DNA of 64,000 nt, taken from contig JAUSIH010000037.1 of the NCBI GenBank assembly GCA_030648205.1, forward strand, positions 3,744 to 67,743. The letters are read 5' to 3'. Shown piece by piece: positions 534 through 56,640 of the stretch. The position numbers and the translations under genes are program-made. The notes beneath the pieces were generated by a model, which was not told the DNA's origin, searched no databases, and saw only the letters and a list, made by a program, of their open reading frames with translations. Numbering within the stretch: position 1 is the stretch's first letter; each line of letters starts with the position of its first letter. The stretch is from Dehalococcoidia bacterium. Its GTDB lineage: Bacteria > Chloroflexota > Dehalococcoidia > JAUSIH01.

Positions 534-1745
534 ATGGGGCTTGACCTCTCCCGGACCGCGCGCCACATTGATAGCATGGCGGGCCGTCTCCACGACGGGG
601 CCGCCGACCAGGCCGGACGCCTGACGCGCGCCCGCGCTGTTCTGCATGCCCAGGATGCCCTGCTGGACGGGCTGCGGGAAAAGCTCAAGCGCGGCGGGGA
701 CAAGGTCAAGTTCCGGGTGGCGGGCCTTTCCGACGGTCTCGCCGCCCGCCACGCCGCGCCGAGCGCCCCGTCCGACTACGTGGCCCTGGGCGCCGACGGC
801 TCGCAAATCGAGGCCGACAGGCATACGCCCGCCGCATGCTTCCTGCTCAACATCGGCACGGTGTCCCTTCGCTATGGCGCGGCCCCCGGCGCCAGCCTGG
901 ACAGCGTCCCCCTGCTGCTCGCGGACGCCGCGGACCTGGAGGTGCGCGACCCCTCCAGCAGCCGGAGCGAGCGACTGGAGGGGCCGCTTCTGGGCGTGCG
1001 CCGGGCCATCGAGGAGCACAAGGCCCTGCTGGAGCTGGCGCGCCGCGCGCCCCCGGAGCTTCCGGTCGTGGCGCTGCTGGACGGTTCGCTGGTGCTGTGG
1101 ACGCTGGCGGAACAGGCCTACCCCGAGTTCGTGCGCGAGACGCTGCTGGACAAGGCGCTGCTGCCCGTCCTGGACGAGTTCGCCGCGCTGGCCCGGTCGC
1201 GGCCTCTGGCCCTTGCGAGCTACATCAGCTATCCTAGGAGCACGGACGTCGTCAACGCCCTGCGCGTCGCCGAGTGCCCGTACGCGCCGCCCGACTGCGA
1301 CCGCCACTGCTCCGGGATGGGCGCGTTCCAGCGCAAGTGCGACAAGGTGGGCGGCGTCCTTGACCGTGACCTGTTTAGCGGGCTGCTGGCCCCAGGCGAG
1401 CGCTCCGCCCTGTTCGATATCACGTCCAAGATCGTGCAGCGGTACGGGCGGCACGCGGTGCGGTTCTTCTACCTGAACGTGGGGAACGAGATCGCGCGGG
1501 TGGAGATGCCCCAGTGGGTGGCGGACTCGCCGCGCCTGCTGGACCTGGCCCACGGCCTGGCGCTCGACCAGTGCCGGCGCGGGCGCGGCTACCCGGTGTC
1601 CCTGTCGGAGGCGCACGAGCAGGCCGTGGTCCATGAGCCGGACCGCCAGCAGTTCTGGCATCTGGTGGAAAACGCCCTGGCCCGGCGCGGCATGCGCTCG
1701 GACACGTCCGCGAAGAACGTGAGCAAGAGGACGCGATGGCTATGA
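534..1745 (+). CDS. NurA-like 5'-3' nuclease
   Basis: 403 aa. 'YVALGADGSQIEADRH' matches NurA motif I (xDGS) and a second 'LLDGSLVLW' follows. It lies upstream of a HerA-like ATPase gene. Confidence 0.55.
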   Translation: MGLDLSRTARHIDSMAGRLHDGAADQAGRLTRARAVLHAQDALLDGLREKLKRGGDKVKFRVAGLSDGLAARHAAPSAPSDYVALGADGSQIEADRHTPAACFLLNIGTVSLRYGAAPGASLDSVPLLLADAADLEVRDPSSSRSERLEGPLLGVRRAIEEHKALLELARRAPPELPVVALLDGSLVLWTLAEQAYPEFVRETLLDKALLPVLDEFAALARSRPLALASYISYPRSTDVVNALRVAECPYAPPDCDRHCSGMGAFQRKCDKVGGVLDRDLFSGLLAPGERSALFDITSKIVQRYGRHAVRFFYLNVGNEIARVEMPQWVADSPRLLDLAHGLALDQCRRGRGYPVSLSEAHEQAVVHEPDRQQFWHLVENALARRGMRSDTSAKNVSKRTRWL

Positions 1746-3820: not shown

Positions 3821-5467
3821 ATGAATAAGCAAGACGTGAACAAGGACGGCGCGCAGGCCCAGCGGCTCGGCGCGGTCGTCGGCGGATCGCTCGGCGAGGG
3901 GCTGGACGTCCACCTGGACGCCGACGTCTCAGTGGAGGACGTCAAGGTTGGCCGCTTCGTTACCATCCAGGGCCAGAAGCAGCGCTTCTTCGGCGTGGTG
4001 ACGGACGTGGCCCTGGCCTCCGCCGACCAGCGGCTGTCCGCCATCCCGCCGGACGCCAGCGACCCCTTCATCGCGCAGGTGCTGGCGGGCACGGGCGCGT
4101 ACGGCCTTATCACTGTCACGCCCATGCTCACCCTCGGCGGCGGCATCGCGGGCATCGAGGGGCCGCAGCCGGTCAAGACGGTGCCGTCGCACTTCTCGGA
4201 GGCGCGCACCGCCACGGACGCGGACGTGGAGCTGGTCTTCGGGCGCGAGGACGAGCACCATTTCGTGGTGGGCACGCCGCTGGACATGGAGACCAGGGTC
4301 TGCCTGGACCTGCACGAGTTTGTGAAGCGGAGCAACGGGGTCTTCGGCAAGAGCGGCACGGGCAAGAGCTTCCTCACGCGGTTGCTGCTGATTGGCATCA
4401 TTCAGAAGCAGGCGGCGGTCAACCTCGTCTTCGACATGCACAACGACTATGGGTGGGAGGCGCCCCGCGAGGGCGGCCCGCCCGTCAAGGGCCTGAAGCA
4501 GTTCGCCCCGGGCAGGGTGGCCGTGCTGACCCTCGACCCCGAGAACGCGCGCCGACGCCGCGTGTCCACGGACGGCGATGTCCAGATTGGCTTTGAGGAT
4601 GTGCAGCCGGAAGACATCGCCATGCTGCGCGAGACGCTCAACCTCACGCCGCTGGCGGCCCAGTCCGTGTACCGGCTGGTGAAGCGCTTCGGCTCGAAGA
4701 AGTGGTTGGGGGAGTTTCTAGCGCTGGACGCGGAGGGCGTGAACGCGCTGGCCGCCGAACTCGGCGAGCACGAAGGGACGCTCCACAACCTGAGGCGGGG
4801 CCTCGACCGGCTAGGCCGCATGGGCTTCCTGGCGCCGCGCGCTCCGGTGGACTCGGTGCAGACCATCCTGTCCAACCTCCAGCAGGGGAAACACGTCGTG
4901 CTGGAGTTCGGGCGGTACGGCGAAGACCTTGCCGCCTACGTCCTCGTCGCCAACATGCTGACCCGGCGCATCCGCGAGCGCTACGTGCATCTGATGGAGC
5001 AGGCCCAGGGCGATAGGGGCCAGATGCCCCGGCCCGTCGTCATCACCATTGAGGAAGCGCACAAGTTCCTGAGTCCCGAGGTGGCTGGCATGACCGCCTT
5101 CGGGACCATTGCACGGGAAATGCGCAAGTACAACGTCACCCTGCTGGTGGTGGACCAGCGTCCCAGCGGCATTGACGAGGAGGTCATGTCGCAGATCGGC
5201 ACCAAGATCACCTGTCTGCTGGACAACGAGCGGGACATTGACGCGGTGCTGACGGGCGTCTCCGGCAGCCGGGAGCTGCGCGGCGTCCTGGCCAAGCTGG
5301 AAACGAAGCAGCAGGCGCTCATCTTCGGGCACGCGGTGCCCATGCCCGTGGTCATCAAGACACGGGAGTACGGCACCGCCAAGTCCTACGCGGAGCTGAA
5401 GTTCGCGGACGCCTCTCAGTTGAAGCGCGCCGCCGAGGATGACATAGACCTGTTTCCCAAGCAGTAG
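3821..5467 (+). CDS. HerA-like (FtsK/HerA superfamily) ATPase
   Basis: N-terminal HAS-barrel-like region ('VKVGRFVTIQGQKQRFFGVVTDV'). Walker A 'FGKSGTGKSF', Walker B 'VVITIEEAHKF' and the HerA C-terminal 'LLVVDQRPSGIDEEV' are present. Confidence 0.75.
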   Translation: MNKQDVNKDGAQAQRLGAVVGGSLGEGLDVHLDADVSVEDVKVGRFVTIQGQKQRFFGVVTDVALASADQRLSAIPPDASDPFIAQVLAGTGAYGLITVTPMLTLGGGIAGIEGPQPVKTVPSHFSEARTATDADVELVFGREDEHHFVVGTPLDMETRVCLDLHEFVKRSNGVFGKSGTGKSFLTRLLLIGIIQKQAAVNLVFDMHNDYGWEAPREGGPPVKGLKQFAPGRVAVLTLDPENARRRRVSTDGDVQIGFEDVQPEDIAMLRETLNLTPLAAQSVYRLVKRFGSKKWLGEFLALDAEGVNALAAELGEHEGTLHNLRRGLDRLGRMGFLAPRAPVDSVQTILSNLQQGKHVVLEFGRYGEDLAAYVLVANMLTRRIRERYVHLMEQAQGDRGQMPRPVVITIEEAHKFLSPEVAGMTAFGTIAREMRKYNVTLLVVDQRPSGIDEEVMSQIGTKITCLLDNERDIDAVLTGVSGSRELRGVLAKLETKQQALIFGHAVPMPVVIKTREYGTAKSYAELKFADASQLKRAAEDDIDLFPKQ

Positions 5468-6715: not shown

Positions 6716-7780
6716 GTGAGGTCCGTCATGGCGACCCGCGCCCGCGTCCTGGACGTCCAGGACGACCTTGAGGTCATCAACGAGTACGCCTATGAGCAGG
6801 GCTGGACGGACGGCCTGCCGATTGTTCCGCCCACCCCTGCGCGCGTGAACGCGATGATGCGCGCCGTGGACCGCCGTCCGGATGACGTGGTGGCCCACCT
6901 GCCGCCGCTACGGGCCGCCGCGACGGTGGAGAAGATAGCCATCAGCGCCGTCATGGCGTGGTGCAAGCCGGAGTACTTCCCCGTCGTGCTCGCCGCGGTG
7001 GAGGCCGCCGCGGACCCGCGTCTGTGCATTATGGCCATGAACACGACAACGAACCCCACCGTGCCGTTCGTGCTCGTGAACGGGCCTGTGCGCAACGACA
7101 TAGACCTGAACTGCTCGTGGAGCGTGCTGGGGCCGCGCAAGCGCGCCAACGCGACGATTGGCCGCGCTCTCAGCCTCATCATGATCAATTTGGCGGGTCG
7201 TTTGCCGGAGCAGACGTGCAAGGCGACGTGGAAGATGCCGGGCGCGTTCACCATGTGCGCGGGTGAATACGAGGAGGAAAGCCCCTGGGAGCCTTTCCAT
7301 ACAGACCGGGGCTTCAAGAAGGACGAGAGCACGGTCACGCTCATGTCGCCCGTCTCCGCCGTGAACATCGTGGACAATGAGAGCCAGACGCCGGACGAGC
7401 TGCTCGCCAACATCAACGCGGGCATGTTGGGCGCGGGCAGCAACAACGTCTTTCCTTTCTACGGCATCGGGAACATGGGGCTGATGCTCTGCCCCAACCA
7501 TGCACAGCTTCTGGCCCGGCAGTACACTCGGCGACAGCTCCAGGAGCACTTCCTGACTCACCTCAGGCTGCCTGCGTCGTACCTCAGCCCCCGGCGCGTG
7601 GCGATGATGAAGTCGGCGGACCTGGGGCAGATTGAGGACGGCTATGTGCGGTACGCCGCCCGCGCCGACCAGTTCCTGATCTTCGTGGCGGGCGGACTCG
7701 GCGGGCTGCATTCCGGATTCTTCCCCACGCTGGGCGACTCCAAGGCGGTGACGTACCCCATCCGCCTGCCCGACAGATAG
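6716..7780 (+). CDS. uncharacterised conserved protein, 'GWTDGLPxVPPT' family, paralog 1
   Basis: 354 aa. Shares 'EQGWTDGLPIVPPTPARV...AISAVMAWCKPEYFPVVLAAVEA...VNGPVR...IGRA' with the ORFs at 7800 and 11769. Confidence 0.6.
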   Translation: MRSVMATRARVLDVQDDLEVINEYAYEQGWTDGLPIVPPTPARVNAMMRAVDRRPDDVVAHLPPLRAAATVEKIAISAVMAWCKPEYFPVVLAAVEAAADPRLCIMAMNTTTNPTVPFVLVNGPVRNDIDLNCSWSVLGPRKRANATIGRALSLIMINLAGRLPEQTCKATWKMPGAFTMCAGEYEEESPWEPFHTDRGFKKDESTVTLMSPVSAVNIVDNESQTPDELLANINAGMLGAGSNNVFPFYGIGNMGLMLCPNHAQLLARQYTRRQLQEHFLTHLRLPASYLSPRRVAMMKSADLGQIEDGYVRYAARADQFLIFVAGGLGGLHSGFFPTLGDSKAVTYPIRLPDR

Positions 7781-7799: not shown

Positions 7800-8867
7800 T
7801 TGCGCATGGACCTTCAGTCACAGCGCGTGGAGACGGCGGGCGCCGACGATGCGATAGAGCTGTTCTTCGATAAGGGGTGGACGGACGGCCTGCCGGTCGT
7901 GCCGCCCACGGCGGAGCGGGTGGAGCGCATGATCGCCGCCGGTGGCCGTGGGGCGGATGAGCTTGTCGGCCTCATTCCGCCCAAGGGAAGCGCCGGTACG
8001 GTCGAAAAGCTGGCCGTGAACGCCGTGATGGCGGGCTGCAAGCCGGAGTACTTCCCCGTCGTCCTTGCCGCAGTGGATGCGATGCTCGCCCCCGAGTTCA
8101 ACTGGAACGGCGTCGCCACCACGGCGCACATCGCGTCGCCGCTCGTCATCGTGCACGGCCCTGTGCGCAAGCGCATTGGCGTGAACTGTGGCTGGGGGGT
8201 CTTCGGCAACGGGTGGCGCGCGAACGGGACCATAGGGCGCGCGGTCGCCCTCATCATGTGGAACCTGGGGGGCGCCATCCCCGGCGAGACCTGTCGCAAG
8301 ACCATGGGTCACCCGGGCAAGTGGAGCTACTGCATCGGCGAGAACGAGGAGGTCAGCCCGTGGCCGCCGTTCCACGCGGAGCGGGGATTCAAGCCGGAGC
8401 AGAGCGCGGTGACGGTCTTCGGGTGCGAGGCGCCGCACGGCGTGCGCTCGGTGGGCGACGCGAAGGCCGTGATGTACAGCATTGCCAGCGCGTACTCGAC
8501 CATTGCGAACAACAACATAGCGTACATGGGCCAGGCGCTGGTGGTCGTCGGCTCCCTCTGTGCCGAGGTGTTCAGGAACGAGAATTGGTCCAGGCAAGCG
8601 GTGCAGGAGTTCATCTGGCAGCACGCGCGCCTGCCCGTGGGCGTGGTGGACGGAAGCGGCACGTACTCCGAGGGGCTGGAGCACCACTTCTGGCCGCAGT
8701 GGGTGGACAGGAAGAATCCCCGCGATCTCGCGCCCATCACGAAAAGGCCGGAGGACATCCACGTGCTGGTGGCCGGCGGCTATGGCCGCTCGTGCGCCAT
8801 CTGCCCTGGCTGGGGTGAATTCGGCGGTTTCGCGGTCACGCGGGAGGTCCGGCTGGCTTCCCGCTAA
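7800..8867 (+). CDS. uncharacterised conserved protein, 'GWTDGLPxVPPT' family, paralog 2
   Basis: 355 aa. 'DKGWTDGLPVVPPTAERV...NAVMAGCKPEYFPVVLAAVDA', collinear with paralogs 1 and 3. Confidence 0.6.
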   Translation: MRMDLQSQRVETAGADDAIELFFDKGWTDGLPVVPPTAERVERMIAAGGRGADELVGLIPPKGSAGTVEKLAVNAVMAGCKPEYFPVVLAAVDAMLAPEFNWNGVATTAHIASPLVIVHGPVRKRIGVNCGWGVFGNGWRANGTIGRAVALIMWNLGGAIPGETCRKTMGHPGKWSYCIGENEEVSPWPPFHAERGFKPEQSAVTVFGCEAPHGVRSVGDAKAVMYSIASAYSTIANNNIAYMGQALVVVGSLCAEVFRNENWSRQAVQEFIWQHARLPVGVVDGSGTYSEGLEHHFWPQWVDRKNPRDLAPITKRPEDIHVLVAGGYGRSCAICPGWGEFGGFAVTREVRLASR

Positions 8868-8952: not shown

Positions 8953-10704
8953 TTAGCGGCTTATCCAGACCTTGTCCATCTTCAGATTGTCGTAGAGACC
9001 GTTGCCCGGCTCGTAGTCCCGCACTTCCTTCCACCAGGCGCGGTAGTACAGGTCCCAGTAGGACACAATGTAACCGCCGAGTTCAATGATGCGCAACTGC
9101 ATGTTGCGGACGATCTCCTTGCGCTTCGCTATGTCCAGCGTCCGTGTCTGCTGATCGTACATCGCGTCAATCTGCTTGTCGCTGAACGAGCCGAAGTTCC
9201 GAGAGCCGTCCGTCACGTAGAGCGCCGCGAAGGTCGGGTCGGGGTCGTCCATCGGCTCCGCGAGACCCCACCAGGCTGAATCGAAGGTCTTGTTGTTCAG
9301 ACGATCGAAGGCCGGCCCTTGCTCCTGCAGGTCTAGCTGTACGTCAATGCCGACCTCCGCAAGCTGCTGCTTGATAACGGGCCCCAGGCGGCCTGAGCCG
9401 CCGATGCGGTTGAGCATCACCGTCTTGGCGCCTTTGCCGTAGCCCGCGTCCGCGAGCAGTTTCTTGGCGGCCGCAATGTCCTGGGTCTTGTCCGGCCGAT
9501 AGCCGGGCAATTTGATCAGGTCATCTGGCGTAAGTCCCCAGACACCCTGAGGGTTTAGCGCCGCTCCTATCACGCCACCACCGCCGCCGGCCTTGAGCAT
9601 GTTCTGGCGGTCCAGCGCCAGTTGAACGGCCTGTCGGACGCGCACGTCCTTCCAGGGGTCGCGGGTCATGTTCATGAAGAAGACCGTGCGGGCGAGCGCC
9701 GGGTGTTCGGCGAGAGTGACGGTGCTGGCCATCTCCGTCCGGACGGTGTCCGCCTGGGTGGGCGACAGCGCGCGTGATGCGATGGTTGTTATGCGCACGC
9801 GGCCCGCGCGGAACGCCGCGAAGCGTGTGTTGTCGTCGCGGATGATGAAGAAGGTCAGGCCATCCATGTAAGGCAGGCCCTTGTCCCAGTAATTCGGGTT
9901 CTTCTTCATCTGAATGCTGACGTCACGGTCGTGCCTGGCCCACGTGAAGGGCCCCGTGCCGTTCACCACGCGCTTCATGTCACCGTTGTTTGCCAGAAGG
10001 GTGTGCTTGGGCATCATGAGGATGTTGTCCGTGGCCATGCCGCGCAGGAACGAGGCGCTGGAGAACTTGAGGGTCACGCGGACCGTGGAGGCATCTACCG
10101 CCTCGGCCTTGCTCATCGCGGCAAGGAGCGCCTCTCCCCGCGGGCTGATGGTCTTGAACTCCTGAGGGCGCGCCATGCGGGACAGGCTATAGACGACGTC
10201 TTCCGAGGTGAACGGCTTGCCATCGTGCCAGGTCACGCCCTTGCGCAGGCGGAAGGTATAGACCGTGCCGTCCCCGTTGACCTCCCAGCTCTCAGCAAGC
10301 TCCGGCACCACCTCACCGTGGTTCTTGTAGTGGTACTTGACCAGGCCGTCGTACACGTTGCGGAGCGGGGCGAGCGAGCTGACCGATGTCTGCTCAGCTA
10401 TGTCGTAGTTGGGCGGGTCCTCAAAGTGAGCTACGTTGAGGATGCCGCCGCTGGTGGGCTGCGCGCCGCCCGCGGCAGGCACGGGCGCGGGCGCGGAGGT
10501 CGGTGGGCGGGGCGTCGGCGAAGCGGCGGTCGCCGGCGCGGACGGTGCGGTGGGCACAGCGGTGGGCCGCGGTGCGGCAGTCGCCGCGGGCGCAGCGGGC
10601 GTGGGCGCGGACGGCGCGGGCGCAGCGGCTGGCGCGCACGCTCCGGCGAGGAACGCCAGGGCCAGGACGGCTCCTGATAGACGGTGCAAACTAGATAGTC
10701 TCAC
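8953..10704 (-). CDS. ABC transporter substrate-binding lipoprotein, family 5 (peptide/nickel type)
   Basis: SBP_bac_5-like body ('NVAHFEDPPNYDIAEQTSVSSLAPLRNVYDGLVKY'). Likely GTG start at 10704 with SD 'aagaggaggg', giving signal plus lipobox 'LAFLAGAC'. The longer ORF to 10860 is probably an over-extension. Confidence 0.75.
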   Translation of the reverse strand: MRLSSLHRLSGAVLALAFLAGACAPAAAPAPSAPTPAAPAATAAPRPTAVPTAPSAPATAASPTPRPPTSAPAPVPAAGGAQPTSGGILNVAHFEDPPNYDIAEQTSVSSLAPLRNVYDGLVKYHYKNHGEVVPELAESWEVNGDGTVYTFRLRKGVTWHDGKPFTSEDVVYSLSRMARPQEFKTISPRGEALLAAMSKAEAVDASTVRVTLKFSSASFLRGMATDNILMMPKHTLLANNGDMKRVVNGTGPFTWARHDRDVSIQMKKNPNYWDKGLPYMDGLTFFIIRDDNTRFAAFRAGRVRITTIASRALSPTQADTVRTEMASTVTLAEHPALARTVFFMNMTRDPWKDVRVRQAVQLALDRQNMLKAGGGGGVIGAALNPQGVWGLTPDDLIKLPGYRPDKTQDIAAAKKLLADAGYGKGAKTVMLNRIGGSGRLGPVIKQQLAEVGIDVQLDLQEQGPAFDRLNNKTFDSAWWGLAEPMDDPDPTFAALYVTDGSRNFGSFSDKQIDAMYDQQTRTLDIAKRKEIVRNMQLRIIELGGYIVSYWDLYYRAWWKEVRDYEPGNGLYDNLKMDKVWISR

Positions 10705-11151
10705 AAACCCTCCTCTTGATACGGCCCTGTTCAGGGCCGTCCCCCCAAAAACACTTGGGGTAGGATAATATGCCGCAGATTCAAAGTCAAGCCCTGGCCG
10801 CCTTGCGCACGGAGGAGAGCGGAGCGGACTTCGTGCATCAGGCAGGCGGCAAGTCGACACAGGCTATCCAGAGGCCTTGACAGTCCATGTGTCCGCGCAT
10901 ACGATACGCTTTGGCCTCGCAGGATTGGGTTGCGCGCCGCGGCCTGCTCCTTCGCCTCGCCACGACGCAGCGCCGCCACTGTTATCGGGTGCGGACTTGC
11001 GGAGCGGTGTACGCATGCGATAAAGGCAACTCCAGGAGGACTGGACTCGCGGATTGGACAAAGCTCTGGACGGTGTCAGGGCGCCTGGGTGGCGCCCGGT
11101 GGTGGCAGGCCCCCTTTTCCCCTCGGTCGGACCGAGTGACAAGGAGCACAT

Positions 11152-11712
11152 ATGGCGAAGATACGATTGCTCCAGCCGGTGGCGCCCGAGCCGCAGGCTG
11201 CCTCGAAAGTCAGCCCGCGCCTGACCGATGGCGTGCGCGGCAAGCGGCTGGGCTTCCGCGTTTACTGGCCTCGCTTTGCTCTGTTTATGGAGAAGGCCGA
11301 GCAGGTGTTGCGCGAGCGCTATGGCATCGGCTCGGTGAACCGGATCGAGGGGCTGGTGACGCAGAACATCACCGTCTATGGAAAACAGAAAGAGGAGTGG
11401 GCGGCCTGGCAGCAGAGCAGCGACGCCGCCATTCTGGGCCTGGCTGCCTGAGGGTCGTGCACATCCTGGCTTGTCCAGGACGTGATTGACACCGAAAAGA
11501 AGGGTATTCCCACCGTCATGGTGGTGACCGAGGAGTTCGTGGAGCTGGCGAAGGCGGCGGCGCGCGCCCGCGGCTATCCCGACCTCCCCATGGTGGTGCT
11601 GCCACACCCGTTCGAGACGAAGTCCGCCGAAGAGGTCGAGAGGATAGCGGTGGAGAAGGCGGACGAGCTGGTGCGGAAGCTGACGGCCCCGCTGTCGCCC
11701 GTGCGGGCCTAG
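11152..11712 (+). CDS. UGSC-family selenoprotein (in-frame TGA = Sec at 11449-11451)
   Basis: ORFs 11152..11451 and 11482..11712 are in the same frame, separated only by TGA. Read-through gives '...ILGLAA-U-GSC-TSWLVQDVIDTEKKGIPTVMVV...'. A hairpin at 11457-11484 starts 6 nt after the TGA, like a bacterial SECIS. Confidence 0.6.
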
Positions 11713-11768
11713 GCGCGACGCCGCTCTTTTTCCGCTGGGAGTTGATGACGGAGCAGCAGGACTGACAC

Positions 11769-12824
11769 ATGTCTTCACTACAATTGCGCTCGCCGATCGT
11801 GGAGGCCGAGGACGACCTGGATGGCGTCTTCGCCGAGTATTATCGAAAAGGCTGGACGGACGGCCTGCCCATCGTCCCGCCCACGGAGGCGCGCGTGCGC
11901 CGGATGATAGAGGCGTCTGGACGCTCGCCGGACGAGGTGGTCGGGGTGTTCCCGCCGCGCCAGGCGCAGGGAACGGTGGAGCAGATAGCGGTCAACGCCG
12001 TCATGGCCGGGTGCCTGCCGGAGTACCTCCCCGTGGTGCTCGCCATCGCCGACGCGATGACCGACCCGGGCTTTGATCTCTTTTCGCTCAACACGACCAC
12101 CAATGCGGTCGCCATCCTGACCGTGGTCAACGGCCCCGTCCGCCAGCAGCTTGACATCAACTGCAGCTACGGCCTCCTTGGGCCGGGCTGGCGCGCCAAC
12201 GCGACCATCGGGCGGGCGGTGCGGCTGGTGCAGACGAACATCGCGGGTGCGCTGCCGGGGCCGGTCAGCAAGTCCACGCATGGACAGCCCGGACGCTACG
12301 CCATGTGCTTCGGCGAGTTCGAGGAGAAGAACCCCTGGGAGCCGCTGCACGTGGAGCAGGGGTTCAAGCGCGAGGAGAGCGCCGTCTCCCTGTTCACCGC
12401 GCAGGGCACGGTCCCCATCACCGAGTCGCGCACCCGGACGGCGAAGGCGCTCATCCACTTCATCGCGCACTGCATGGACATCGTGGGCACGAACAACATG
12501 CTGTCGGGGCATCCCGGCGATTCGCTGCTCATCCTGTGCCCCGACCATGCGGCGATCATCGCGCGGGACGGCTACTCGAAGAAGGCGCTCCAGGAGGCGC
12601 TCTTCGCGAAGACCAACCGGATATCGCTGAGCCGCTGGCCGGAGGACAAACACGAGGAACTTCTGAAGAACCGGAAAGCCACAGGGCGGTTCGTGTCCCT
12701 GCACGACGGCCCCGCCAACTTCCGCATCGTTGTCGCCGGGGGGCTTGGCGGCATCCATTCGACCTGGGTCCCCACCTACGGCCATTCGGTCGCCATCACC
12801 AGGCGAATCAAGGCTGGAAGCTAG
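11769..12824 (+). CDS. uncharacterised conserved protein, 'GWTDGLPxVPPT' family, paralog 3
   Basis: 351 aa. 'RKGWTDGLPIVPPTEARV...NAVMAGCLPEYLPVVLAIADA'. Confidence 0.6.
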   Translation: MSSLQLRSPIVEAEDDLDGVFAEYYRKGWTDGLPIVPPTEARVRRMIEASGRSPDEVVGVFPPRQAQGTVEQIAVNAVMAGCLPEYLPVVLAIADAMTDPGFDLFSLNTTTNAVAILTVVNGPVRQQLDINCSYGLLGPGWRANATIGRAVRLVQTNIAGALPGPVSKSTHGQPGRYAMCFGEFEEKNPWEPLHVEQGFKREESAVSLFTAQGTVPITESRTRTAKALIHFIAHCMDIVGTNNMLSGHPGDSLLILCPDHAAIIARDGYSKKALQEALFAKTNRISLSRWPEDKHEELLKNRKATGRFVSLHDGPANFRIVVAGGLGGIHSTWVPTYGHSVAITRRIKAGS

Positions 12825-13104: not shown

Positions 13105-13974
13105 ATGGCTTACCAGTACATCCTCTACGGGGTCGAGAACCGGATAGCGACCATCACGTTGAACCGTCCGGAGAAGATGAACGCGGTGCATGACGCCATG
13201 CGCGCGGAGATCAGCGCCGCATACGCGGACGCGGCCAAGGACGATGCAGTCAAGGTGGTCATCCTGAAAGGCGCCGGGACGTGCTTTTCGGCGGGCCACG
13301 ACCTGCAGGCGGTGGGCCGGCCCTACGGGTTCAACGACGGGCGCACGGAGGAGGAGCGCAGCCGGCGCCCCAGCCAGCGCGTCCGCCTGCGCCGCGACCG
13401 CTGGATAGCGGAAATCTGGCGGGACATCCTCGTCCACCCCAAGATCACCATTGCGCAGATACACGGCCACTGCCTGGGCGGCTCAAGCCTTATGCAGCTC
13501 TGCTGCGACGTCGCGGTCGCCGCTGAGGACGCTACCCTGGGCCACCCGGAGTACCGGCTGGTCGGCCCCAAGGTAAGCCTGCTCCAGATGCTCATCATGG
13601 GAATGCGCCGCGCCAATTTTGTGTGCTACACGGGCCGCAAGTTCACGGGCAGGGAGGCGGAGCGCCTCGGCCTCGTCAGCCTGGCAGTCCCCGCCGACAA
13701 GCTGGAGGAGGAAGTGCGGACCATGGCCCAGTCCTTCGCCCAGTTCCCCGCGGACGGCATTGCCATCGGCAAGGCCATCACGCACCAGGCGCTGGAGGCG
13801 CTGGGGGTCACCAAGGCGTTCAGCCAGTGGTACATGGGCCACACGCTGGGGACCAACATCCAGTTTGAGCAGGAAGACCACAACTTCTTCCGCGAGCGCC
13901 GGGAGAAGGGCACCAAGACCGCCTTCCACGAGCGCGACGCGCGGTTTGACAAGCTTGGCAAGGCGAAACGCTAG
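13105..13974 (+). CDS. enoyl-CoA hydratase/isomerase (crotonase) family protein
   Basis: 'YILYGVENRIATITLNRPEKMNAV...ILKGAGTCFSAGHDL' is a crotonase-fold signature. SD 'gaaaggagac' precedes the ATG. Confidence 0.8.
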   Translation: MAYQYILYGVENRIATITLNRPEKMNAVHDAMRAEISAAYADAAKDDAVKVVILKGAGTCFSAGHDLQAVGRPYGFNDGRTEEERSRRPSQRVRLRRDRWIAEIWRDILVHPKITIAQIHGHCLGGSSLMQLCCDVAVAAEDATLGHPEYRLVGPKVSLLQMLIMGMRRANFVCYTGRKFTGREAERLGLVSLAVPADKLEEEVRTMAQSFAQFPADGIAIGKAITHQALEALGVTKAFSQWYMGHTLGTNIQFEQEDHNFFRERREKGTKTAFHERDARFDKLGKAKR

Positions 13975-47462: not shown

Positions 47463-49097
47463 TTACGGCACCACCTCTATCGCCAGCCGGAAGATGGGCA
47501 GTTGATATCCATACTCCAGGCTGGGATGGTCCTGAAGCGCGGTCAGTTGCGGCGTCTGGTACATGAAGGGGGGCTTCCCGTGCCCCTGATAGACGGTGGG
47601 GTACAGGTCAATCAAGTGCGTCCCCGGCTGGCCAGTCGCCCGCATGTTAATGACCACATCGCCTTTGCTGTTGAAGCCGCAGGCGTAGCCAATGTAGCTG
47701 TTGTCGTACGTGAGCGTGAAGGTGTTGTCAAGCTCCGTCCATCCGATGCCCTTCACGTGGACCTGGAACATCTCTCCCACCTTCACGCGGGAGGGAGTGA
47801 CCTCCACAAGACTCTGCTGGACGTAGAAGAAGGGCTCCGCGACCACCTTGTCGCCCTGCACGACCTTGAGCGTGTGCCACCCGCCGAGGTCGTCGGGGAC
47901 CTGGAAGTCCAAAGTCAGCGCACCCTGATTGTCCGATTTCGCTGTCCCCAGCGAGAGTTCCGCCAGCGCCCAGCCTCTGCCGCTCACGCGACTGCCTCTG
48001 GCCGTCATGAAGAAGACTTCGGTGGGGGTGTTGGCCGTCAGGCCCGTGACTCGCAGGGTCGCGTTGGAAAGAACGGGCCCTGTCGAGGGCGTGATGGTTG
48101 CCCGCGCTCCGGAGTTTATGGGCGTTTCACTCGCGGTGGTACGTATCGCGCTGAAGTTCAGCTTAACCACGCCCGGCTCCGGCCCGTCCAGGCTGGTGGC
48201 CGGCACGCCTGGGTCTTCCGTGACGGTGAACGTGAACTGGAAGGTGGGGGTATGACCCACTGGCGCCTGCTCCCAGTTCAGGTAGGGCACGCTCTTGTGG
48301 CCGTGCCAGAGTTCAATGACGTGTTTTCCCGGCGGCCCGCTGGCGCGAATAGCCGCCGTGGCCTGTCCACCCGTGGTGACGGTTGAAATGAACCCGGTGA
48401 ACTGGTTATCGTAGGTGAGGACCCAGGTGTTCTCGTACGGCCTCCAGCCGATCCCTTTGCCTTTGATGGTGATAGGCGTTCCTATGGGCCCTTGCGTGGG
48501 GGTGACGGTGAACTCCGGCAGGACGCGGAAGCCTCCCCGCGTCACATCCTGTCCGTCAACCACGCCGTACACGTCATGCACGCCGCCGTAGCCGTCCGGG
48601 GCGACAAGGTTCGCGCTCAGCTTGCCTTGTCCGTCGGTGACGGCGCGGCCGACAGGAACGCGCTTCTCGGTCCACTTGGCTTCGTAAAACTCTATGGTCT
48701 CCTGGCTGGGCTCCATGTCATAGCGTGCGCTCGCCGTCGCCCAGAAGAACTGCACCTCTTTGCTGGCGGGCAGGCCCTCGGCGCTGATGCTGAAGGGCTG
48801 GCCCACGCTGCCCTTGACGGGATTCACGTTGAGCGGCTTTGGGAGAGCGGCGGCGGCTGGCGCCGCCGCGGGCGCTGGCTGTCGAGGCGCGACCGCCGCC
48901 ACCGCTTCCGGCGCGCGCGGCTGCTCCATCTGCTTGGCCGCGGCCGGTGCGGCGACCGGCGCGGAACGCGGGGGTGCGGGAGAGGCCGATGAAACTCCCG
49001 GCGTACAGGCCGCCGCCAGCACAATCAGTCCAGAGAGGGCCAGATTGAATCCGGCCATCGGCAGATGTCGCTTTGGGAACGTTGCAAGGTTTTTCAT
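47463..49097 (-). CDS. uncharacterised lipoprotein 'A1' (~540 aa, internally duplicated beta-rich domains); paralog of 50037..51653
   Basis: SD 'gaaaggggggagg', then ATG at 49097. Lipobox 'VLAAAC'. Two internal repeats ('TVTPTQGPIGTPITIKGKGIGWRPYENTWVLTYDN' / 'EVTPSRVKVGEMFQVHVKGIGWTELDNTFTLTYDN'). Co-linear and similar to A2 over the whole length. Confidence 0.6.
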   Translation of the reverse strand: MKNLATFPKRHLPMAGFNLALSGLIVLAAACTPGVSSASPAPPRSAPVAAPAAAKQMEQPRAPEAVAAVAPRQPAPAAAPAAAALPKPLNVNPVKGSVGQPFSISAEGLPASKEVQFFWATASARYDMEPSQETIEFYEAKWTEKRVPVGRAVTDGQGKLSANLVAPDGYGGVHDVYGVVDGQDVTRGGFRVLPEFTVTPTQGPIGTPITIKGKGIGWRPYENTWVLTYDNQFTGFISTVTTGGQATAAIRASGPPGKHVIELWHGHKSVPYLNWEQAPVGHTPTFQFTFTVTEDPGVPATSLDGPEPGVVKLNFSAIRTTASETPINSGARATITPSTGPVLSNATLRVTGLTANTPTEVFFMTARGSRVSGRGWALAELSLGTAKSDNQGALTLDFQVPDDLGGWHTLKVVQGDKVVAEPFFYVQQSLVEVTPSRVKVGEMFQVHVKGIGWTELDNTFTLTYDNSYIGYACGFNSKGDVVINMRATGQPGTHLIDLYPTVYQGHGKPPFMYQTPQLTALQDHPSLEYGYQLPIFRLAIEVVP

Positions 49098-49133
49098 CGT
49101 CCTCCCCCCTTTCATTCGATGTACAGGCCGTTG

Positions 49134-49928
49134 CTATTCAATGATCTGGAGTCGCGTGTCCTCAGGGGGACTGCCTTGAGGAAAGATCAGGTACGGGGGC
49201 TTCCATGTGTACTTGCGCCCGTCCTTGGTGGCTATGTCAAACTCGTAGGTCAGGGCGCCCAGCGGATAGTTGAGGGGGACATCCCATTGGGTCACCCACA
49301 TGAAAGGGGCGTCAGGCTGGCGCCCGCCGGCGCGCTGGCCGAACCGCACGGTCTTTTCGTCGCCGTTCTGCATGCGCAGCTTGACGGTCGATCCATCCTG
49401 AGGTGTAAGGCGCTTCCCCGTGGATGTGTCGAACACTTCGAAGCGCCAGACTATGTTCATCCCGCGCTTGAACACGGTGGCGCCGACACAGGCGATGCTG
49501 CCCTGGATGACGTCTTCGGCATTGATCTTCAGATTGCCATGGGAGGAGGTCAGCACTTCCACGTAGACAACGAACGGGACGGGCTCGTAGAGAGAGGGTG
49601 GTGGCGGGGGTGGTGGTCGTGGCGTCGGGGCGCCGGGCACGGGCGTTGGCGCCGGTGTCCGCGGCTTGGCCAACGCCGCCGACACGAGCGCCATGCTGCC
49701 GGCTTGCTTGGCCGCGGCGGCTGCCTTCTGCTGCGCCGCCTGAATCTCCTGGTCCTTGGCGGCGAGTTGCTTCTGCAGGTCCGCTGCCTTCTTTTCCTGG
49801 GCCGTCGCCTGCGCCTTCGCGGCGTCCAGGTCTGCCTGGGAGATGCCGCTGCAAGCCGAGGCCAGCATGAGGATCGTGCCCAGCAGTCCGAACACTGCCG
49901 ACTTCTTGAACCGTATGCCGAATTTCAT
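49134..49928 (-). CDS. uncharacterised lipoprotein 'B1' (coiled-coil plus Pro-rich linker plus C-terminal domain); paralog of 51684..52493
   Basis: SD 'aaggaga', then ATG at 49928. Lipobox 'MLASACSG'. 'SQADLDAAKAQATA' coiled coil, a 'PPPPPPP' linker and the C-terminal domain 'VWRFE..D..TGKR.T..DG.TVK.R...GE......QRAGGR.PDAP.MW...WD.PLNYPLG'. Confidence 0.6.
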   Translation of the reverse strand: MKFGIRFKKSAVFGLLGTILMLASACSGISQADLDAAKAQATAQEKKAADLQKQLAAKDQEIQAAQQKAAAAAKQAGSMALVSAALAKPRTPAPTPVPGAPTPRPPPPPPPSLYEPVPFVVYVEVLTSSHGNLKINAEDVIQGSIACVGATVFKRGMNIVWRFEVFDTSTGKRLTPQDGSTVKLRMQNGDEKTVRFGQRAGGRQPDAPFMWVTQWDVPLNYPLGALTYEFDIATKDGRKYTWKPPYLIFPQGSPPEDTRLQIIE

Positions 49929-50036
49929 GCGTTCTCCTTTGTCAGTGGGGTGGTCTCGTCCATATGATGGTCGGTGCTTCAACCCAGACAAGCTGTATAT
50001 TTCGGGTCTCACCTCCGTTGGCTACCGCCTGGCCAG

Positions 50037-51653
50037 CTACGGCACCACCTCTATGGCCAGCCGGACGGCGGGCAGCTTGTATCCCAGCGACAGGGCAGGG
50101 AAGTCGTCTTTGTAGCTCAGGATGGGTACCTGGTATCCCCACGGCGGCTTCCCGTGCCCCTGATAGATCATCGGGTACAGGTCCACCAGGTGAATGCCAG
50201 GCGCGCCTGTGGCCACGAGGTTTACCGTGACGTCGCCCATGCTGTTGAAGCCGCACGCGAAGCCGATGTAGGCATTGTCATAGGTCATCGCCACGCCGTT
50301 CGTCAGCTCGGTCCAGCCCACTCCCTTGATGCGGATTGTAAAGGTCTCGCCAGCCTTCACGCGCGTTGGCGTCACGTCCACGAGGCTGATCTCGACGTAG
50401 TAGGGGACATCCGCGACAACCTTGCCCCCTTGCACCAGCTTCACCACGTGCCAGCCGCCCAGGTCGTCCGGGACCTGGATCGTCCCCGCCAGCACCCCAT
50501 TCGCGTCGGTTCTGGCCTTGAGAAGGGATGTCTCGTTCAAGCTCCACCCGCTCGGGCTGACGCGATTGCCGCGAACGGTCACCCAGAAGGCTTCCACATC
50601 GCTGTTGGGCGTGAGACCGCTCGCATTTAGCGCAGCTTTGGAGAGGATGGGGCCGGAGGCGGGTTTCAGCGTGGCGGTGGGGCCCGGCGACCGCAGGACG
50701 CCGCCCGCGCTACCTTGCGTGGTCTTGACAGCCTCGCTCACCGAGGCGACGCGGCTCGCGTCCGGCCAGTCGAGCGAGAAGGCCGGAAGGCCCTTGCTCT
50801 CGGTCACGGTGAACCAGGCGCGGAGGTCTGGTATGTGGGCGGTGCCGGACTGCTGGTTATTGAGGTACGGGACGGACTTGGCGCCATGGTTGAAGTCCAG
50901 GACGTGCTTGCCCACCGGGCCCGCGGCGCGGATGTGGGCTGTCGCCGTGCCGCGCGTGGTCACCGCCGTGATAATCCCCGTGGGCTGGTTGTTGTAGCGG
51001 AGCGCGATGGTGCTCTCGTAGACCTTCCAGCCGAGTCCGGTCATTTTGATGGTGATGGGGGTGCCGATGGGTCCTTCCTGCGGCGTGATGGTGACGTTCC
51101 GCATGATGCGGTAGCCGCCGCGCGCAACGTCGCCATTGTCCACGACGGCGAAGATGTCATGGACCTCCCCGAAGTCCTCCGGCGCCTTGAGCGACGCCGA
51201 GAACCTGCCTTGAGCGTCCGTGGTTGCCTGCCCCAGAGGCATCCGCTTCTCGACGAAATTCCTCTCGTAGAACTCGACGTTCTCCGCGGTGGCCTTCATG
51301 ACATAGCTGCCGTCCACCGTGACCCATAGCAACGTCACCGGCTTTCCGGGCGCAAGGCCGTCGCCGCTGATGGTGAAGGCGTCACCCACATAGCCCTTGC
51401 TGGGCTCGACCTTGAGCAGCTTCAGCGGTACGGGAGTGGGCGTGGGCGCCGTGGCGGGGCCGGCGCCGATCACCGGAACGTCCTGCATGTTTGGCGCAGT
51501 CGTTGTGGAAGAACTGGGGGAGGGCGGTCGCTCAGCGGGCTGCGCTTGCGGGGCAGAGACACAGGCCGCAAGCAACAGACCCGTGAGCGCAAGCATCAGG
51601 AACAGTCGTGCCCTCAAAGACCAATGCCTTGCTGATTCGTATGCGTTTGTCAT
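50037..51653 (-). CDS. uncharacterised lipoprotein 'A2' (paralog of A1)
   Basis: SD 'ggaggg', then ATG. Lipobox 'LLLAAC'. Shares '...LPxxRLAIEVVP' C-terminus and domain order with A1. Confidence 0.6.
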   Translation of the reverse strand: MTNAYESARHWSLRARLFLMLALTGLLLAACVSAPQAQPAERPPSPSSSTTTAPNMQDVPVIGAGPATAPTPTPVPLKLLKVEPSKGYVGDAFTISGDGLAPGKPVTLLWVTVDGSYVMKATAENVEFYERNFVEKRMPLGQATTDAQGRFSASLKAPEDFGEVHDIFAVVDNGDVARGGYRIMRNVTITPQEGPIGTPITIKMTGLGWKVYESTIALRYNNQPTGIITAVTTRGTATAHIRAAGPVGKHVLDFNHGAKSVPYLNNQQSGTAHIPDLRAWFTVTESKGLPAFSLDWPDASRVASVSEAVKTTQGSAGGVLRSPGPTATLKPASGPILSKAALNASGLTPNSDVEAFWVTVRGNRVSPSGWSLNETSLLKARTDANGVLAGTIQVPDDLGGWHVVKLVQGGKVVADVPYYVEISLVDVTPTRVKAGETFTIRIKGVGWTELTNGVAMTYDNAYIGFACGFNSMGDVTVNLVATGAPGIHLVDLYPMIYQGHGKPPWGYQVPILSYKDDFPALSLGYKLPAVRLAIEVVP

Positions 51654-51683
51654 GACCGCCCTCCGATCCCAGTTTAATGACTG

Positions 51684-52493
51684 CTATTCGACGATTTGAA
51701 GCCGACTGTCTGCCGTCGCGCTCACCAGCGCTGGCTGCTTCCATGTGCCAGTCGTCTTGCCATCCTTGGATGTCACAGTGATGCTGTAGTCGAGGCCGCC
51801 CAGCGGGTAGTTGAGCGGGATATCCCAAAACGCGTTCCACATCCAGGGTGCATCAGGGACGCGCCCGCCGGCTCGCTGGGACCACCGGGCGGTTATCTCC
51901 TCGCCGTGCGGGAGCCGCATCTTGACCGTCGCTCCGTCCAGGTCCGTCACCCGCTTGTCCGTGGCGAGGTCAATCGCCTCGAAGCGCCAGACGATGCGCT
52001 GCCCGCGCTTGAACACGCTGGTGGGCAGGCAGTTGACGGTGGAGGCTATGTCAAACTGGCTGGGCCTTTGTGTAGCCAGCGCCTCGACATGGAAGTAATA
52101 GGGGCCCACGGGCTGGGAGTAAGAAGCGGGAGTCACGGGCCGTGGTGGCGCCGCGACGCCGGGTGGGAGCGGCGTGGGAGTGGGAGGAGGCGGCGGCTGG
52201 GGCACTTTCTTCGCACCGATGAGCACCGTCACGCCCGCCGGGCCCGCGCTCTTCAGCGCGTCCTCTGCCTTCTTCTGCTCGGCCGTCAGCTTCTGTTGAA
52301 TGGTTGTGATCTCCTGCTGCCTGGCGGCCAGGTCCTTCTGGACAGCCGCCGTCTTCTGCTCGGCGGCGGTCGCCTGCGCCTTGGCGGCGTCCAGGTCCGC
52401 CTGGGAGATGCCGCTGCAGGCCGAGGCCAGCACCAGCGTTGCGCTCAGCGCCGAGAAAACCCCTAGCCTTTTGATACCTTTGCTAAACCCCAT
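51684..52493 (-). CDS. uncharacterised lipoprotein 'B2' (paralog of B1)
   Basis: Lipobox 'LVLASACSG'. Same coiled-coil, poly-Pro and C-terminal domain architecture as B1. Confidence 0.6.
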   Translation of the reverse strand: MGFSKGIKRLGVFSALSATLVLASACSGISQADLDAAKAQATAAEQKTAAVQKDLAARQQEITTIQQKLTAEQKKAEDALKSAGPAGVTVLIGAKKVPQPPPPPTPTPLPPGVAAPPRPVTPASYSQPVGPYYFHVEALATQRPSQFDIASTVNCLPTSVFKRGQRIVWRFEAIDLATDKRVTDLDGATVKMRLPHGEEITARWSQRAGGRVPDAPWMWNAFWDIPLNYPLGGLDYSITVTSKDGKTTGTWKQPALVSATADSRLQIVE

Positions 52494-52555
52494 GATGACC
52501 TCCTTTATCTCCTTTTTGGTGCGAGCCCAAAATACCGGCGCCGAAATGGCTTAGT

Positions 52556-53158: not shown

Positions 53159-53211
53159 GGAAACCTCCTTTGTTTGCTTACTTTGTGCAGGTCGCCGGGT
53201 AGCTCCTTTTC

Positions 53212-56481: not shown

Positions 56482-56640
56482 GGTCTCCCCTCCCTTGACT
56501 CGATCGAGGAACCCTCCCGCTCCTCGGCGCATATTCATATGCCAGATTCATTATGGCCGTTTAGAGGGGAGGGCAACATCCGAAAAACCTCGCGTCTTCC
56601 AGCGCGTGGAAACACCTGCTGTCAACACGTAGTCGTTCGG

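What the first reader, a model, noticed from the sequence alone, without database searches (positions are those of the whole stretch)
11152..11712. Selenoprotein gene: two adjacent ORFs are one reading frame interrupted only by TGA encoding the 'UGSC' motif, with a SECIS-like hairpin
ORF 11152..11451 ends with TGA (11449-51). ORF 11482..11712 is in the same frame. The intervening codons read TGA-GGG-TCG-TGC = U-G-S-C, exactly the signature of the annotated 'UGSC family (seleno)protein', a Sec/Cys redox motif. A hairpin at 11457-11484 ('gtgcacatcctgg cttgt ccaggacgtg') sits 6 nt downstream of the TGA. Its G/U-containing apical loop lies ~20 nt after the TGA, matching bacterial SECIS geometry. 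Automated callers would split or truncate this gene.
Basis: partly seen in the sequence, partly recalled or inferred. Interest (0 to 1): 0.75.

Follow-up and report, generated by a model that had tools for sequence, protein, structure and literature searches.

The report
UGSC-family selenoprotein gene with SECIS hairpin
The two short ORFs are one 186-codon gene of the known UGSC selenoprotein family, in which an in-frame TGA followed by a conserved RNA hairpin encodes selenocysteine; the call is correct but the family is already known, and a conserved partner gene of unknown function sits next to it.

Summary
Window 11152-11712 (+) is one reading frame with a single TGA (11449-11451) followed by GGG-TCG-TGC, giving U-G-S-C. 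The read-through product matches Pfam UGSC (PF24696) end to end (E 9e-37). Twenty-eight other distinct homologous sequences from metagenomes carry TGA at the same codon, each followed by a conserved in-frame C-terminal half. Genuine Cys forms have Cys exactly at that column. In the window's own clade the post-TGA half has dN/dS of 0.08-0.17. A hairpin sits in one fixed register (stem nt 17-21/27-31 from the U of UGA, loop 22-26). It is paired in 143 of 145 cells, with compensatory changes at three pairs (0 of 500 shuffles reach it).

Two gaps remain. The window holds no selA, selB, selD or tRNA-Sec, and the source genome could not be retrieved. The window's loop (CUUGU) also lacks the G in the first two loop positions that 26 of 29 relatives have.

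Extra findings: a 351-aa protein of unknown family is encoded immediately downstream in nearly all loci and is fused to UGSC in some. The UGSC domain models as flavodoxin/Rossmann-like, not thioredoxin-like, and is remotely related to the Sec region of glycine reductase protein B.

Verdict: a new member of a known selenoprotein family.

The parts
11141..11146 (+). Shine-Dalgarno-like AAGGAG, 5 nt upstream of the ATG
   Evidence: Read directly from the sequence.
11152..11712 (+). Complete UGSC-family selenoprotein gene: 186 aa, Sec at residue 100, stop TAG at 11710-11712
   Evidence: Single frame with one TGA. Pfam PF24696 positions 2-171 of 172, E 8.8e-37. NCBIfam NF041046 at 95.4 bits. dN/dS of the post-TGA half is 0.15-0.21 against L060, L002 and L001.
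11449..11451 (+). In-frame TGA read as selenocysteine (Sec100)
   Evidence: TGA sits at the same column in 29 distinct homologous sequences. Cys occupies that column in 7 aligned Cys forms and in 33 distinct Cys-form genomic sequences. The column is invariant.
11449..11460 (+). U-G-S-C motif codons (TGA GGG TCG TGC)
   Evidence: U-G-x-C is conserved in all Sec forms.
11464..11480 (+). SECIS core hairpin: stem 11464-11469 pairs with 11475-11480, apical loop CUUGU at 11470-11474
   Evidence: MFE fold. The family-wide core stem (nt 17-21/27-31 from the U of UGA) is paired in 143 of 145 cells, with three or four pair types at three positions. Covariation score is 0.306 against 0.101 for shuffles (0 of 500 reach it), and slid registers reach at most 0.103.
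11452..11493 (+). Extended SECIS stem predicted for this sequence only (lower helices 11452-11457/11487-11493 and 11460-11462/11482-11484)
   Evidence: The outer pairs are not conserved across the family: pairs 14-34, 15-33 and 16-32 are paired in only about half or fewer of the sequences.
11769..12824 (+). Conserved partner gene: 351 aa, uncharacterised family, probably the large subunit that works with the UGSC protein
6716..7780 (+). Paralog of the partner gene (43 % identity), with no UGSC gene next to it
   Evidence: tblastn and blastp. No Pfam hit.
7800..8867 (+). Second paralog of the partner gene (38 % identity)
8953..10860 (-). Divergently transcribed SBP_bac_5 solute-binding protein (ABC transporter), a recurrent neighbour of the module
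   Evidence: Pfam PF00496, E 1.7e-78. Homologs lie near UGSC in about 16 related loci.
13105..13974 (+). Enoyl-CoA hydratase/isomerase gene downstream of the module (context)
   Evidence: Pfam ECH_1, E 2.6e-40. Syntenic in L060 at 93 % identity and present near the module in L044, L047, L059 and L077.

Best explanation
Window 11152-11712 is a single gene for a 186-residue member of the UGSC protein family. The UGA at 11449-11451 is decoded as selenocysteine, and the coding-region hairpin 18 nt downstream (core 11464-11480) acts as the bacterial SECIS element that recruits SelB carrying Sec-tRNA(Sec).

Shown here: gene continuity, family membership, the Sec/Cys column, purifying selection after the UGA, and a structurally conserved, covarying hairpin.

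Inferred: actual Sec insertion, because the genome's selABCD genes were not seen.

Inferred mechanism of the protein: it is a small flavodoxin/Rossmann-like alpha/beta domain. The U-x-x-C pair sits in the beta3-alpha3 loop and at the N-terminus of the helix, and is expected to cycle between selenol/thiol and a selenenyl-sulfide. It works as the redox-active small subunit of a two-component enzyme whose large subunit is the 351-aa protein encoded immediately downstream (11769-12824). The Sec region is remotely homologous to the Sec region of glycine, sarcosine and betaine reductase protein B. The neighbouring genes encode solute-binding or Tct transporters, CoA-transferase III and enoyl-CoA hydratase. 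Together these suggest a reductive step in the catabolism of an imported small organic acid or amino-acid derivative. The substrate is unknown.
For: - One frame with a single TGA followed by GSC.
- Pfam PF24696 matches across the TGA, E 8.8e-37, 127 bits against a cutoff of 25. All 27 aligned relatives match PF24696 and NF041046.
- An exhaustive phmmer search with the N-half found 29 cluster representatives. 26 of them end exactly at ...D-x-A-(I/V)-x-G-L-(A/G)-(A/G), and one reads through with Cys.
- A metagenome scan with a pattern that ends at the Cys codon of UGxC gave 39 matches. 38 are UGSC genes with TGA at that codon; in the 32 whose contig reaches the next stop, 81-93 conserved codons continue in frame.
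- The Sec column is invariant and is Cys in the genuine Cys forms.
- dN/dS of the post-TGA half is 0.15-0.17 for the window against L060 and L002, and 0.21 against L001.
- Hairpin: -20.3 kcal/mol, z = -2.43. The family-wide core is paired in 143 of 145 cells. Pair types at 18-30 are GC, CG, GU and UA; at 19-29 UA, GC, UG and GU; at 20-28 GC, AU, GU and CG. Covariation is 0.306 against a shuffled mean of 0.101 (0 of 500), and slid registers reach at most 0.103. Position 18 is a synonymous third-codon position that tracks the Q/H codon choice at position 30.
- Local MFE of nt 13-36 is -9.0 kcal/mol for Sec forms and -3.4 for Cys forms at equal GC.
- The element meets the published bSECIS criteria (PMC13188914, Fig. 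2A) for loop size, stem length, spacing (18 nt) and MFE.
- UGSC is an established selenoprotein family: 255 Sec and 21 Cys forms in the GOS data (PMC2398784).
- Sec decoding and tRNA-Sec are known in Chloroflexi (PMC1794560, PMC5389517). The closest named relatives of the partner protein are Chloroflexi MAGs.
- Partner link: the gene is adjacent in nearly all loci and fused in frame in L079.
- GrdB link: 17 of 27 members hit TIGR01917, best E 3.9e-6, and the window protein aligns to profile positions 335-406.
- Fold and position of the Sec-equivalent Cys.
Against: - No selA, selB or selD gene and no tRNA-Sec were found in the 64-kb window or in about 0.9 Mb of related loci. The source genome could not be found.
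- The window's apical loop is CUUGU, so the G is not in the first two loop positions as the bSECIS model requires. Only the window, L002 and L060 share this loop; the other 26 have G23-U24.
- The NCBIfam equivalog score is 95.4 bits, below the curated cutoff of 125.
- Cys-form homologs in Dehalococcoidia keep 5 of 5 core pairs, so the hairpin is not exclusive to Sec forms and part of its complementarity fits the protein motif W..(H/Q/Y)D.
- The sequences are phylogenetically related, so only roughly 8-10 independent compensatory events underlie the covariation counts.
- The functional model (two-component reductase) rests on synteny, one fusion architecture, weak HMM hits and AF2 models. There is no biochemical evidence.
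Confidence: 0.88

Rival explanations
1. The TGA is a genuine stop and there are two separate genes: a 99-aa protein (11152-11451) and a 76-aa protein that starts at GTG 11482. In other words, the family is split here.
For: TGA is used as a real stop by 5 of 44 confident genes in the window. Gene callers in public databases annotate the homologs this way. No Sec machinery was seen.
Against: The 10 codons between the TGA and GTG 11482 (GSCTSWLVQD) contain some of the most conserved residues of the family. The called start of the second piece differs between homologs, lying 69-72 nt after the TGA in L001, L002 and L004 and 124 nt after it in L079, and it always lies inside conserved sequence. There is no ribosome-binding context. 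Cys forms are single proteins. The Pfam model aligns straight across the TGA.
Confidence: 0.03
2. The gene is a pseudogene: a Cys codon (TGC or TGT) mutated to TGA, and the downstream part is decaying.
For: TGC to TGA is a single-base change. Cys forms of the family exist.
Against: The same TGA occurs in 29 distinct sequences spanning 27-92 % protein identity. The downstream half is intact in all of those that are complete. Its dN/dS is 0.08-0.23 within the window's clade, similar to the N-half. The TGA also appears in independent metagenomes (L002, L060), which excludes a sequencing error.
Confidence: 0.03
3. The UGA is read through, but not as selenocysteine. It could be read by near-cognate suppression or by lineage-specific recoding to Cys, Trp or Gly, with the hairpin acting as a general read-through stimulator.
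For: Sec machinery is unverified for this genome. TGA is unusually rare as a stop here (5 of 44, against 26 TAG and 13 TAA) despite 64.5 % GC. The window's loop lacks the canonical G position.
Against: Only one in-frame TGA occurs in 64 kb, so recoding is not genome-wide. The five TGA-terminated genes run into non-coding sequence, and three of the five meet further stops within 30 codons. The codon sits at the redox-active Cys column of a family documented as selenoproteins. The hairpin has SECIS spacing and size.
Confidence: 0.05

Closest known systems
UGSC family (seleno)protein (Pfam PF24696; NCBIfam NF041046; 'UGSC-containing protein' of the Sargasso Sea and GOS selenoproteome studies)
   Same: Full-length domain match. 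The U-G-S-C motif sits at the same column. Sec and Cys forms both exist. The SECIS lies within the coding region directly after the UGA. The reported tendency to be fused to an unknown domain matches the UGSC::partner fusion seen here.
   Different: The score is below the NCBIfam equivalog cutoff (95 against 125 bits). From the E-values, the best member of the clade examined here reaches only about 109 bits, so this is a divergent subfamily, apparently of Chloroflexota. The window's SECIS loop is CUUGU rather than xGUxU. The 2008 paper guessed a thioredoxin-like fold, but the AF2 model of a Cys homolog is flavodoxin/Rossmann-like.
Selenoprotein B of glycine, sarcosine, betaine and D-proline reductases (GrdB, GrdF, GrdH, PrdB; TIGR01917, TIGR01918)
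   Same: There is weak but recurrent HMM similarity (17 of 27 members, best E 3.9e-6) restricted to the region of GrdB that carries its Sec (profile positions ~335-406 of 431). Both are Sec enzymes of small-molecule catabolism that work with a second, substrate-binding polypeptide.
   Different: Only about 75 residues align (19.9 bits against a cutoff of 602). UGSC is 186 aa, not about 430. No GrdA, GrdC, GrdD, GrdE or PrdA genes are nearby. The partner protein has no detectable similarity to any Grd or Prd subunit.
Canonical bacterial SECIS (E. coli fdhF type; consensus model of Zhang and Gladyshev as summarised in PMC13188914)
   Same: The stem-loop lies inside the ORF, with 18 nt between the UGA and a 5-nt apical loop, a stem of at least 5-6 bp, and MFE well below -7.5 kcal/mol. 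Most family members have G-U at loop positions 2-3.
   Different: In the window and its two closest relatives the G is at loop position 4 (CUUGU). The lower stem is not conserved across the family.

Membership tests
UGSC family (Pfam PF24696) | Full-length match above the Pfam gathering score | tested here: met
   127.3 bits against a cutoff of 25, E 8.8e-37, profile positions 2-171 of 172, spanning the TGA.
UGSC family (NCBIfam NF041046 equivalog) | Score at or above the curated cutoff of 125 bits | tested here: not met
   95.4 bits, E 3.2e-27. The best of 27 relatives has E 3e-31, which corresponds to about 109 bits. The clade is therefore a divergent subfamily.
UGSC family | U/C-G-S-C motif at the conserved position, with Sec aligning to Cys in homologs | tested here: met
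   TGA-GGG-TCG-TGC. The column is invariant. It is Cys in 7 aligned Cys forms and in 33 distinct Cys-form genomic sequences, and TGA in 29 distinct Sec-form sequences.
Bacterial selenoprotein gene | In-frame UGA with conserved, selected coding sequence on both sides | tested here: met
   dN/dS of the C-half is 0.08-0.23.
Bacterial selenoprotein gene (bSECIS model, PMC13188914 Fig. 2A) | Apical loop of 3-9 nt, upper stem of 4-16 bp, 16-37 nt between UGA and loop, MFE at or below -7.5 kcal/mol | tested here: met
   The loop is 5 nt, the stem is 6 bp (a 5-bp core is conserved), the spacing is 18 nt, and the MFE is -20.3 kcal/mol.
Bacterial selenoprotein gene (bSECIS model) | [quoted passage not shown] | tested here: inconclusive
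   The window loop is C-U-U-G-U, so the criterion is not met in the MFE fold. It is met only if the closing G21-C27 pair is opened. 26 of 29 relatives have G at loop position 2, followed by U.
Bacterial selenoprotein gene | Structural conservation of the SECIS with compensatory changes | tested here: met
   143 of 145 core cells are paired, three pairs show four pair types each, and 0 of 500 shuffles reach the observed covariation.
Bacterial selenoprotein gene | selA, selB, selC (tRNA-Sec) and selD present in the genome | not testable with these tools
   They are absent from the 64-kb window. The source genome is not among the GTDB representatives matched and is not in the exact-match index. 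The trait is documented in Chloroflexi.
Bacterial selenoprotein gene | Selenium physically incorporated at the UGA position | not testable with these tools
   This needs 75Se labelling or mass spectrometry.
Glycine/sarcosine/betaine/proline reductase selenoprotein B | Full-length match to TIGR01917 or TIGR01918 above cutoff | tested here: not met
   19.9 bits against a cutoff of 602, and only profile positions 335-406 align.
Glycine/sarcosine/betaine/proline reductase selenoprotein B | Genomic association with GrdA/GrdE/GrdC/GrdD or PrdA | tested here: not met
   None of the 40-odd window genes scanned with Pfam belongs to those families.
Thioredoxin-fold thiol/selenol oxidoreductase | Thioredoxin fold carrying the UxxC motif | tested here: not met
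   [not shown]

The most novel reading that the evidence does not exclude
The UGSC protein and the 351-aa downstream protein may form a previously uncharacterised, widespread two-component selenoenzyme that is sometimes fused into one chain. The catalytic subunit has a fold with no close solved relative. The Sec site descends from the same ancestor as that of the glycine/proline reductase B proteins. If so, this would be a new class of Sec- or Cys-dependent reductase acting on imported small organic acids or amino-acid derivatives in Chloroflexota, Actinomycetota and aquatic bacteria.
Probability: 0.4. Interest if true: 0.6.

Novelty: new member of a known kind. Interest (0 to 1): 0.3.

Why it matters
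For annotation, the gene is systematically mis-called. 26 of 29 database cluster representatives stop at the Sec codon, and the fused 570-codon form is split into two genes. As a result the family's real size, its Sec/Cys ratio and its architecture are under-recorded outside marine data sets.

For biology, UGSC is among the most abundant aquatic selenoprotein families, yet it has no known function. Three observations here give concrete handles for working out what it does:
- It is locked to, and sometimes fused with, a very large uncharacterised protein family (at least 7995 homologs with no Pfam model and no solved fold).
- It is not thioredoxin-like.
- Its Sec region resembles that of GrdB.

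Tried and rejected
- The word-indexed homolog search with the Sec-to-Cys substituted product returned only one hit, a truncated protein.
It was therefore run with the N-terminal half only.
- The 23-sequence alignment A1 was too divergent for locus scanning.
- The genome-contig scan returned only Cys forms, because one derived pattern required a Cys codon. It did not recover the source genome; the best identity was 36 %.
- An exact look-up of the partner protein found no record.
- ARAGORN found no tRNA-Sec on 39 Sec-form loci.
- A tblastn probe with an E. coli SelD sequence written from memory found nothing in 0.9 Mb. This is uninformative given the short flanks.
- PDB sequence searches gave only marginal hits: Blr0248 at E 0.02 for UGSC and cathepsin B at E 0.1 for the partner. 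Both were judged spurious.
- The afdb50 fold library was unavailable.
- Figure S1A of PMC2398784 (the UGSC/Unknown_1 fusion) is held only as an image, so the identity of 'Unknown_1' with the partner could not be verified.
- A covariance-model search of the window was considered and not run. Coding homology alone would produce the hit, so it would not be independent evidence.
- The thioredoxin-fold idea was rejected on the basis of the model.

Full report
**1. Observation.**
Reading 10900-11900 and translating 11152-11712 shows a single frame of 187 codons. It starts at ATG 11152, preceded by AAGGAG at 11141-11146. There is one internal stop, TGA at 11449-11451, and the terminal stop is TAG at 11710-11712. 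The codons after the TGA are GGG TCG TGC, giving U-G-S-C. The mechanically listed ORFs 11152..11451 and 11482..11712 are in the same frame. The quoted hairpin string is at 11457-11484. The product is 186 aa, not 187. A scan of both strands for TGA codons flanked by at least 60 stop-free, coding-like codons on each side found only this one in 64 kb.

**2. Family.**
With Cys substituted for Sec, the product matches Pfam PF24696 'UGSC family' over profile positions 2-171 of 172 (127 bits, cutoff 25, E 8.8e-37). It matches NCBIfam NF041046 'UGSC family (seleno)protein' at 95.4 bits, which is below the curated 125-bit cutoff. UGSC-containing proteins have been a recognised selenoprotein family since the Sargasso Sea and GOS analyses. 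GOS contained 255 Sec forms and 21 Cys forms with a UxxC motif (PMC2398784). The family is listed in current catalogues under NF041046 (PMC13188914).

**3. The TGA is conserved and the downstream half is translated.**
- An exhaustive phmmer search with the N-terminal 99 residues found 29 cluster representatives. 26 are 91-115 aa long and end exactly at the ...D-x-A-(I/V)-x-G-L-(A/G)-(A/G) position, which means they were truncated by gene callers at the same stop. One (P0010, 179 aa) continues with Cys.
- The contigs for four of these (L001-L004) each show TGA followed by G-(S/A)-C-T-S-W and an intact C-terminal half.
- A metagenome scan used a degenerate DNA pattern that ends at the Cys codon of UGxC, so it does not constrain the hairpin. 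It gave 39 matches. 38 are UGSC genes with TGA at that codon, and only L064 was a chance match. In the 32 whose contig reaches the next stop, 81-93 conserved codons (…GYPDLPMVVVPHPFET…) continue in frame.
- L060 is fully syntenic with the window: SBP5, UGSC, partner and ECH at 86-93 % amino-acid identity.
- Within the window's clade the post-TGA half has dN/dS of 0.15 (against L060), 0.17 (against L002) and 0.21 (against L001). The N-half has 0.06-0.07 against L060 and L002. The post-TGA half is therefore under protein-level selection.

**4. Sec aligns with Cys.**
A genome scan returned 35 loci from Dehalococcoidia and Actinomycetota MAGs. All have Cys at this column, as GLGT-C-GSC-TTF or GLGT-C-WGT-APW. 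In a 27-sequence alignment the Sec/Cys column is one of only three invariant columns.

**5. SECIS.**
- The 47 nt from the UGA fold into a hairpin at -20.3 kcal/mol (z = -2.43; 4 of 200 shuffles fold as well). The stem is nt 16-21/27-32, counting the U of UGA as 1 (window 11464-11469/11475-11480). The loop is CUUGU (11470-11474).
- Across 29 distinct Sec-form sequences the hairpin sits in the same register, although both the nucleotides and the encoded residues differ. Examples are UCCUGG/CCAGGA, CGGAG/CUCCG, GCGGC/GUUGC and CUUGG/CCAAG.
- Pair counting gave 143 of 145 paired cells for the 5-bp core. Pairs 18-30, 19-29 and 20-28 each show four pair types. The covariation score is 0.306 against a shuffled mean of 0.101 (0 of 500 shuffles reach it), and slid registers reach at most 0.103.
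- Position 18 is a synonymous third-codon position (TCC, TCG, GCG or GCT). Its partner, position 30, switches the residue between Gln and His, so the RNA structure is dictating an amino-acid choice.
- Against the published bSECIS criteria (PMC13188914 Fig. 2A), loop size, stem length, spacing (18 nt) and MFE are all met. The requirement for a G in the first two loop positions is met by 26 of 29 relatives (G23-U24). It is not met by the window, L002 and L060, whose loop is CUUGU. Because this clade still shows purifying selection after the UGA, the variant loop is presumably functional, but that is an inference.
- Controls: Actinomycetota Cys forms keep only 3-4 of 5 core pairs. The mean local MFE is -3.4 kcal/mol for Cys forms and -9.0 for Sec forms at equal GC. 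The Dehalococcoidia Cys forms, however, keep 5 of 5 pairs. They may carry a relic SECIS, or part of the complementarity may come from the protein motif.

**6. Sec machinery.**
ARAGORN and Rfam find only tRNA-Thr, tRNA-Tyr and tRNA-Thr in the window. Pfam scans of more than 40 genes found no SelA, SelB or SelD; the only translational GTPase is EF-Tu. TGA terminates 5 of 44 genes, and these run into non-coding sequence, so the genome is not recoded. The source genome could not be retrieved. The partner protein's closest named relatives are Chloroflexi MAGs at 77 % and 57 % identity. Selenoproteins and tRNA-Sec are documented in that phylum. The refutation criterion 'no machinery in the genome' therefore remains untested.

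**7. What the protein is likely to do.**
- The Sec-equivalent Cys96 lies in the beta3-alpha3 loop, and the +3 position is the first residue of the helix. That is the usual geometry for a redox-active UxxC or CxxC pair.
- 17 of 27 members give weak hits to glycine reductase selenoprotein B (best E 3.9e-6), and the window protein aligns to profile positions 335-406. Some members also hit GrdF, GrdH and the generic selenoprotein-B model.
- The 351-aa gene at 11769-12824 lies immediately downstream of the UGSC gene in nearly every Sec-form or Cys-form locus with enough sequence.
- In L079 the two are one 570-codon frame. The order is UGSC N-half, TGA, UGSC C-half, linker and partner. The frame has the same SECIS core, and databases call it as two genes.
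- Recurrent neighbours are SBP_bac_5/ABC or TctABC transporters, CoA-transferase III and enoyl-CoA hydratase.
- The most likely model is a two-component enzyme in which UGSC supplies the selenol/thiol redox pair to the partner, acting in the catabolism of an imported small molecule. This model is inferred, not shown.

**8. Verdict.**
The gene is a new, somewhat divergent member of a known selenoprotein family, probably from a Chloroflexota genome. It is not a new kind of element. The residual uncertainty is the unseen Sec machinery and the atypical loop. The more interesting lead is the conserved, sometimes fused, uncharacterised partner.

Noticed in passing
[not shown]
   Followed up: partly
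L079 2581-4293 (Logan SRR29054610); P0088, P0090: This is a natural UGSC::partner fusion selenoprotein. It is a single 570-codon frame with TGA at 2875-2877 and the same SECIS core, lies next to TctABC transporter genes, and is called in databases as a 98-aa gene plus a 429-aa gene. It is probably the 'UGSC/Unknown_1 fusion' mentioned in PMC2398784.
   Followed up: partly
L005-L009 (Dehalococcoidia MAGs), about 10280-10330 in each locus: Cys-form UGSC homologs with the motif C-W-G-T, which lack the second Cys, still keep 5 of 5 base pairs of the SECIS core hairpin in the same register. This may be a relic SECIS left after a Sec-to-Cys conversion.
   Followed up: no
whole window (44 confident genes): Stop-codon usage is TAG 26, TAA 13 and TGA 5. 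TAG dominating and TGA being rare is unusual for a 64.5 % GC genome, where TGA normally dominates.
   Followed up: no
L055 (about 2775 and 6568 on the minus strand) and L070 (156 and 3949): Some metagenome contigs carry two divergent UGSC Sec-form genes about 3.8 kb apart, with an SBP_bac_5 gene and a partner-family gene between them. One Chloroflexi MAG (locus tags HYX92_*) has at least five partner paralogs. The module is therefore expanded in some genomes.
   Followed up: no
window 534-1745 and 3821-5467: A NurA nuclease gene and a HerA-type (DUF87, HAS-barrel) helicase gene lie upstream of the partner paralogs. This is a bacterial NurA-HerA pair and is unrelated to the finding.
   Followed up: no
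window 47463-56538 (-): This is a run of genes with no Pfam hits (550, 292, 538 and 269 aa), followed by an Ig-like-domain protein, an NrfD-type membrane subunit and a 4Fe-4S dicluster protein. It resembles part of an alternative-complex-III or Qrc-like respiratory module but has no recognisable molybdopterin subunit.
   Followed up: no
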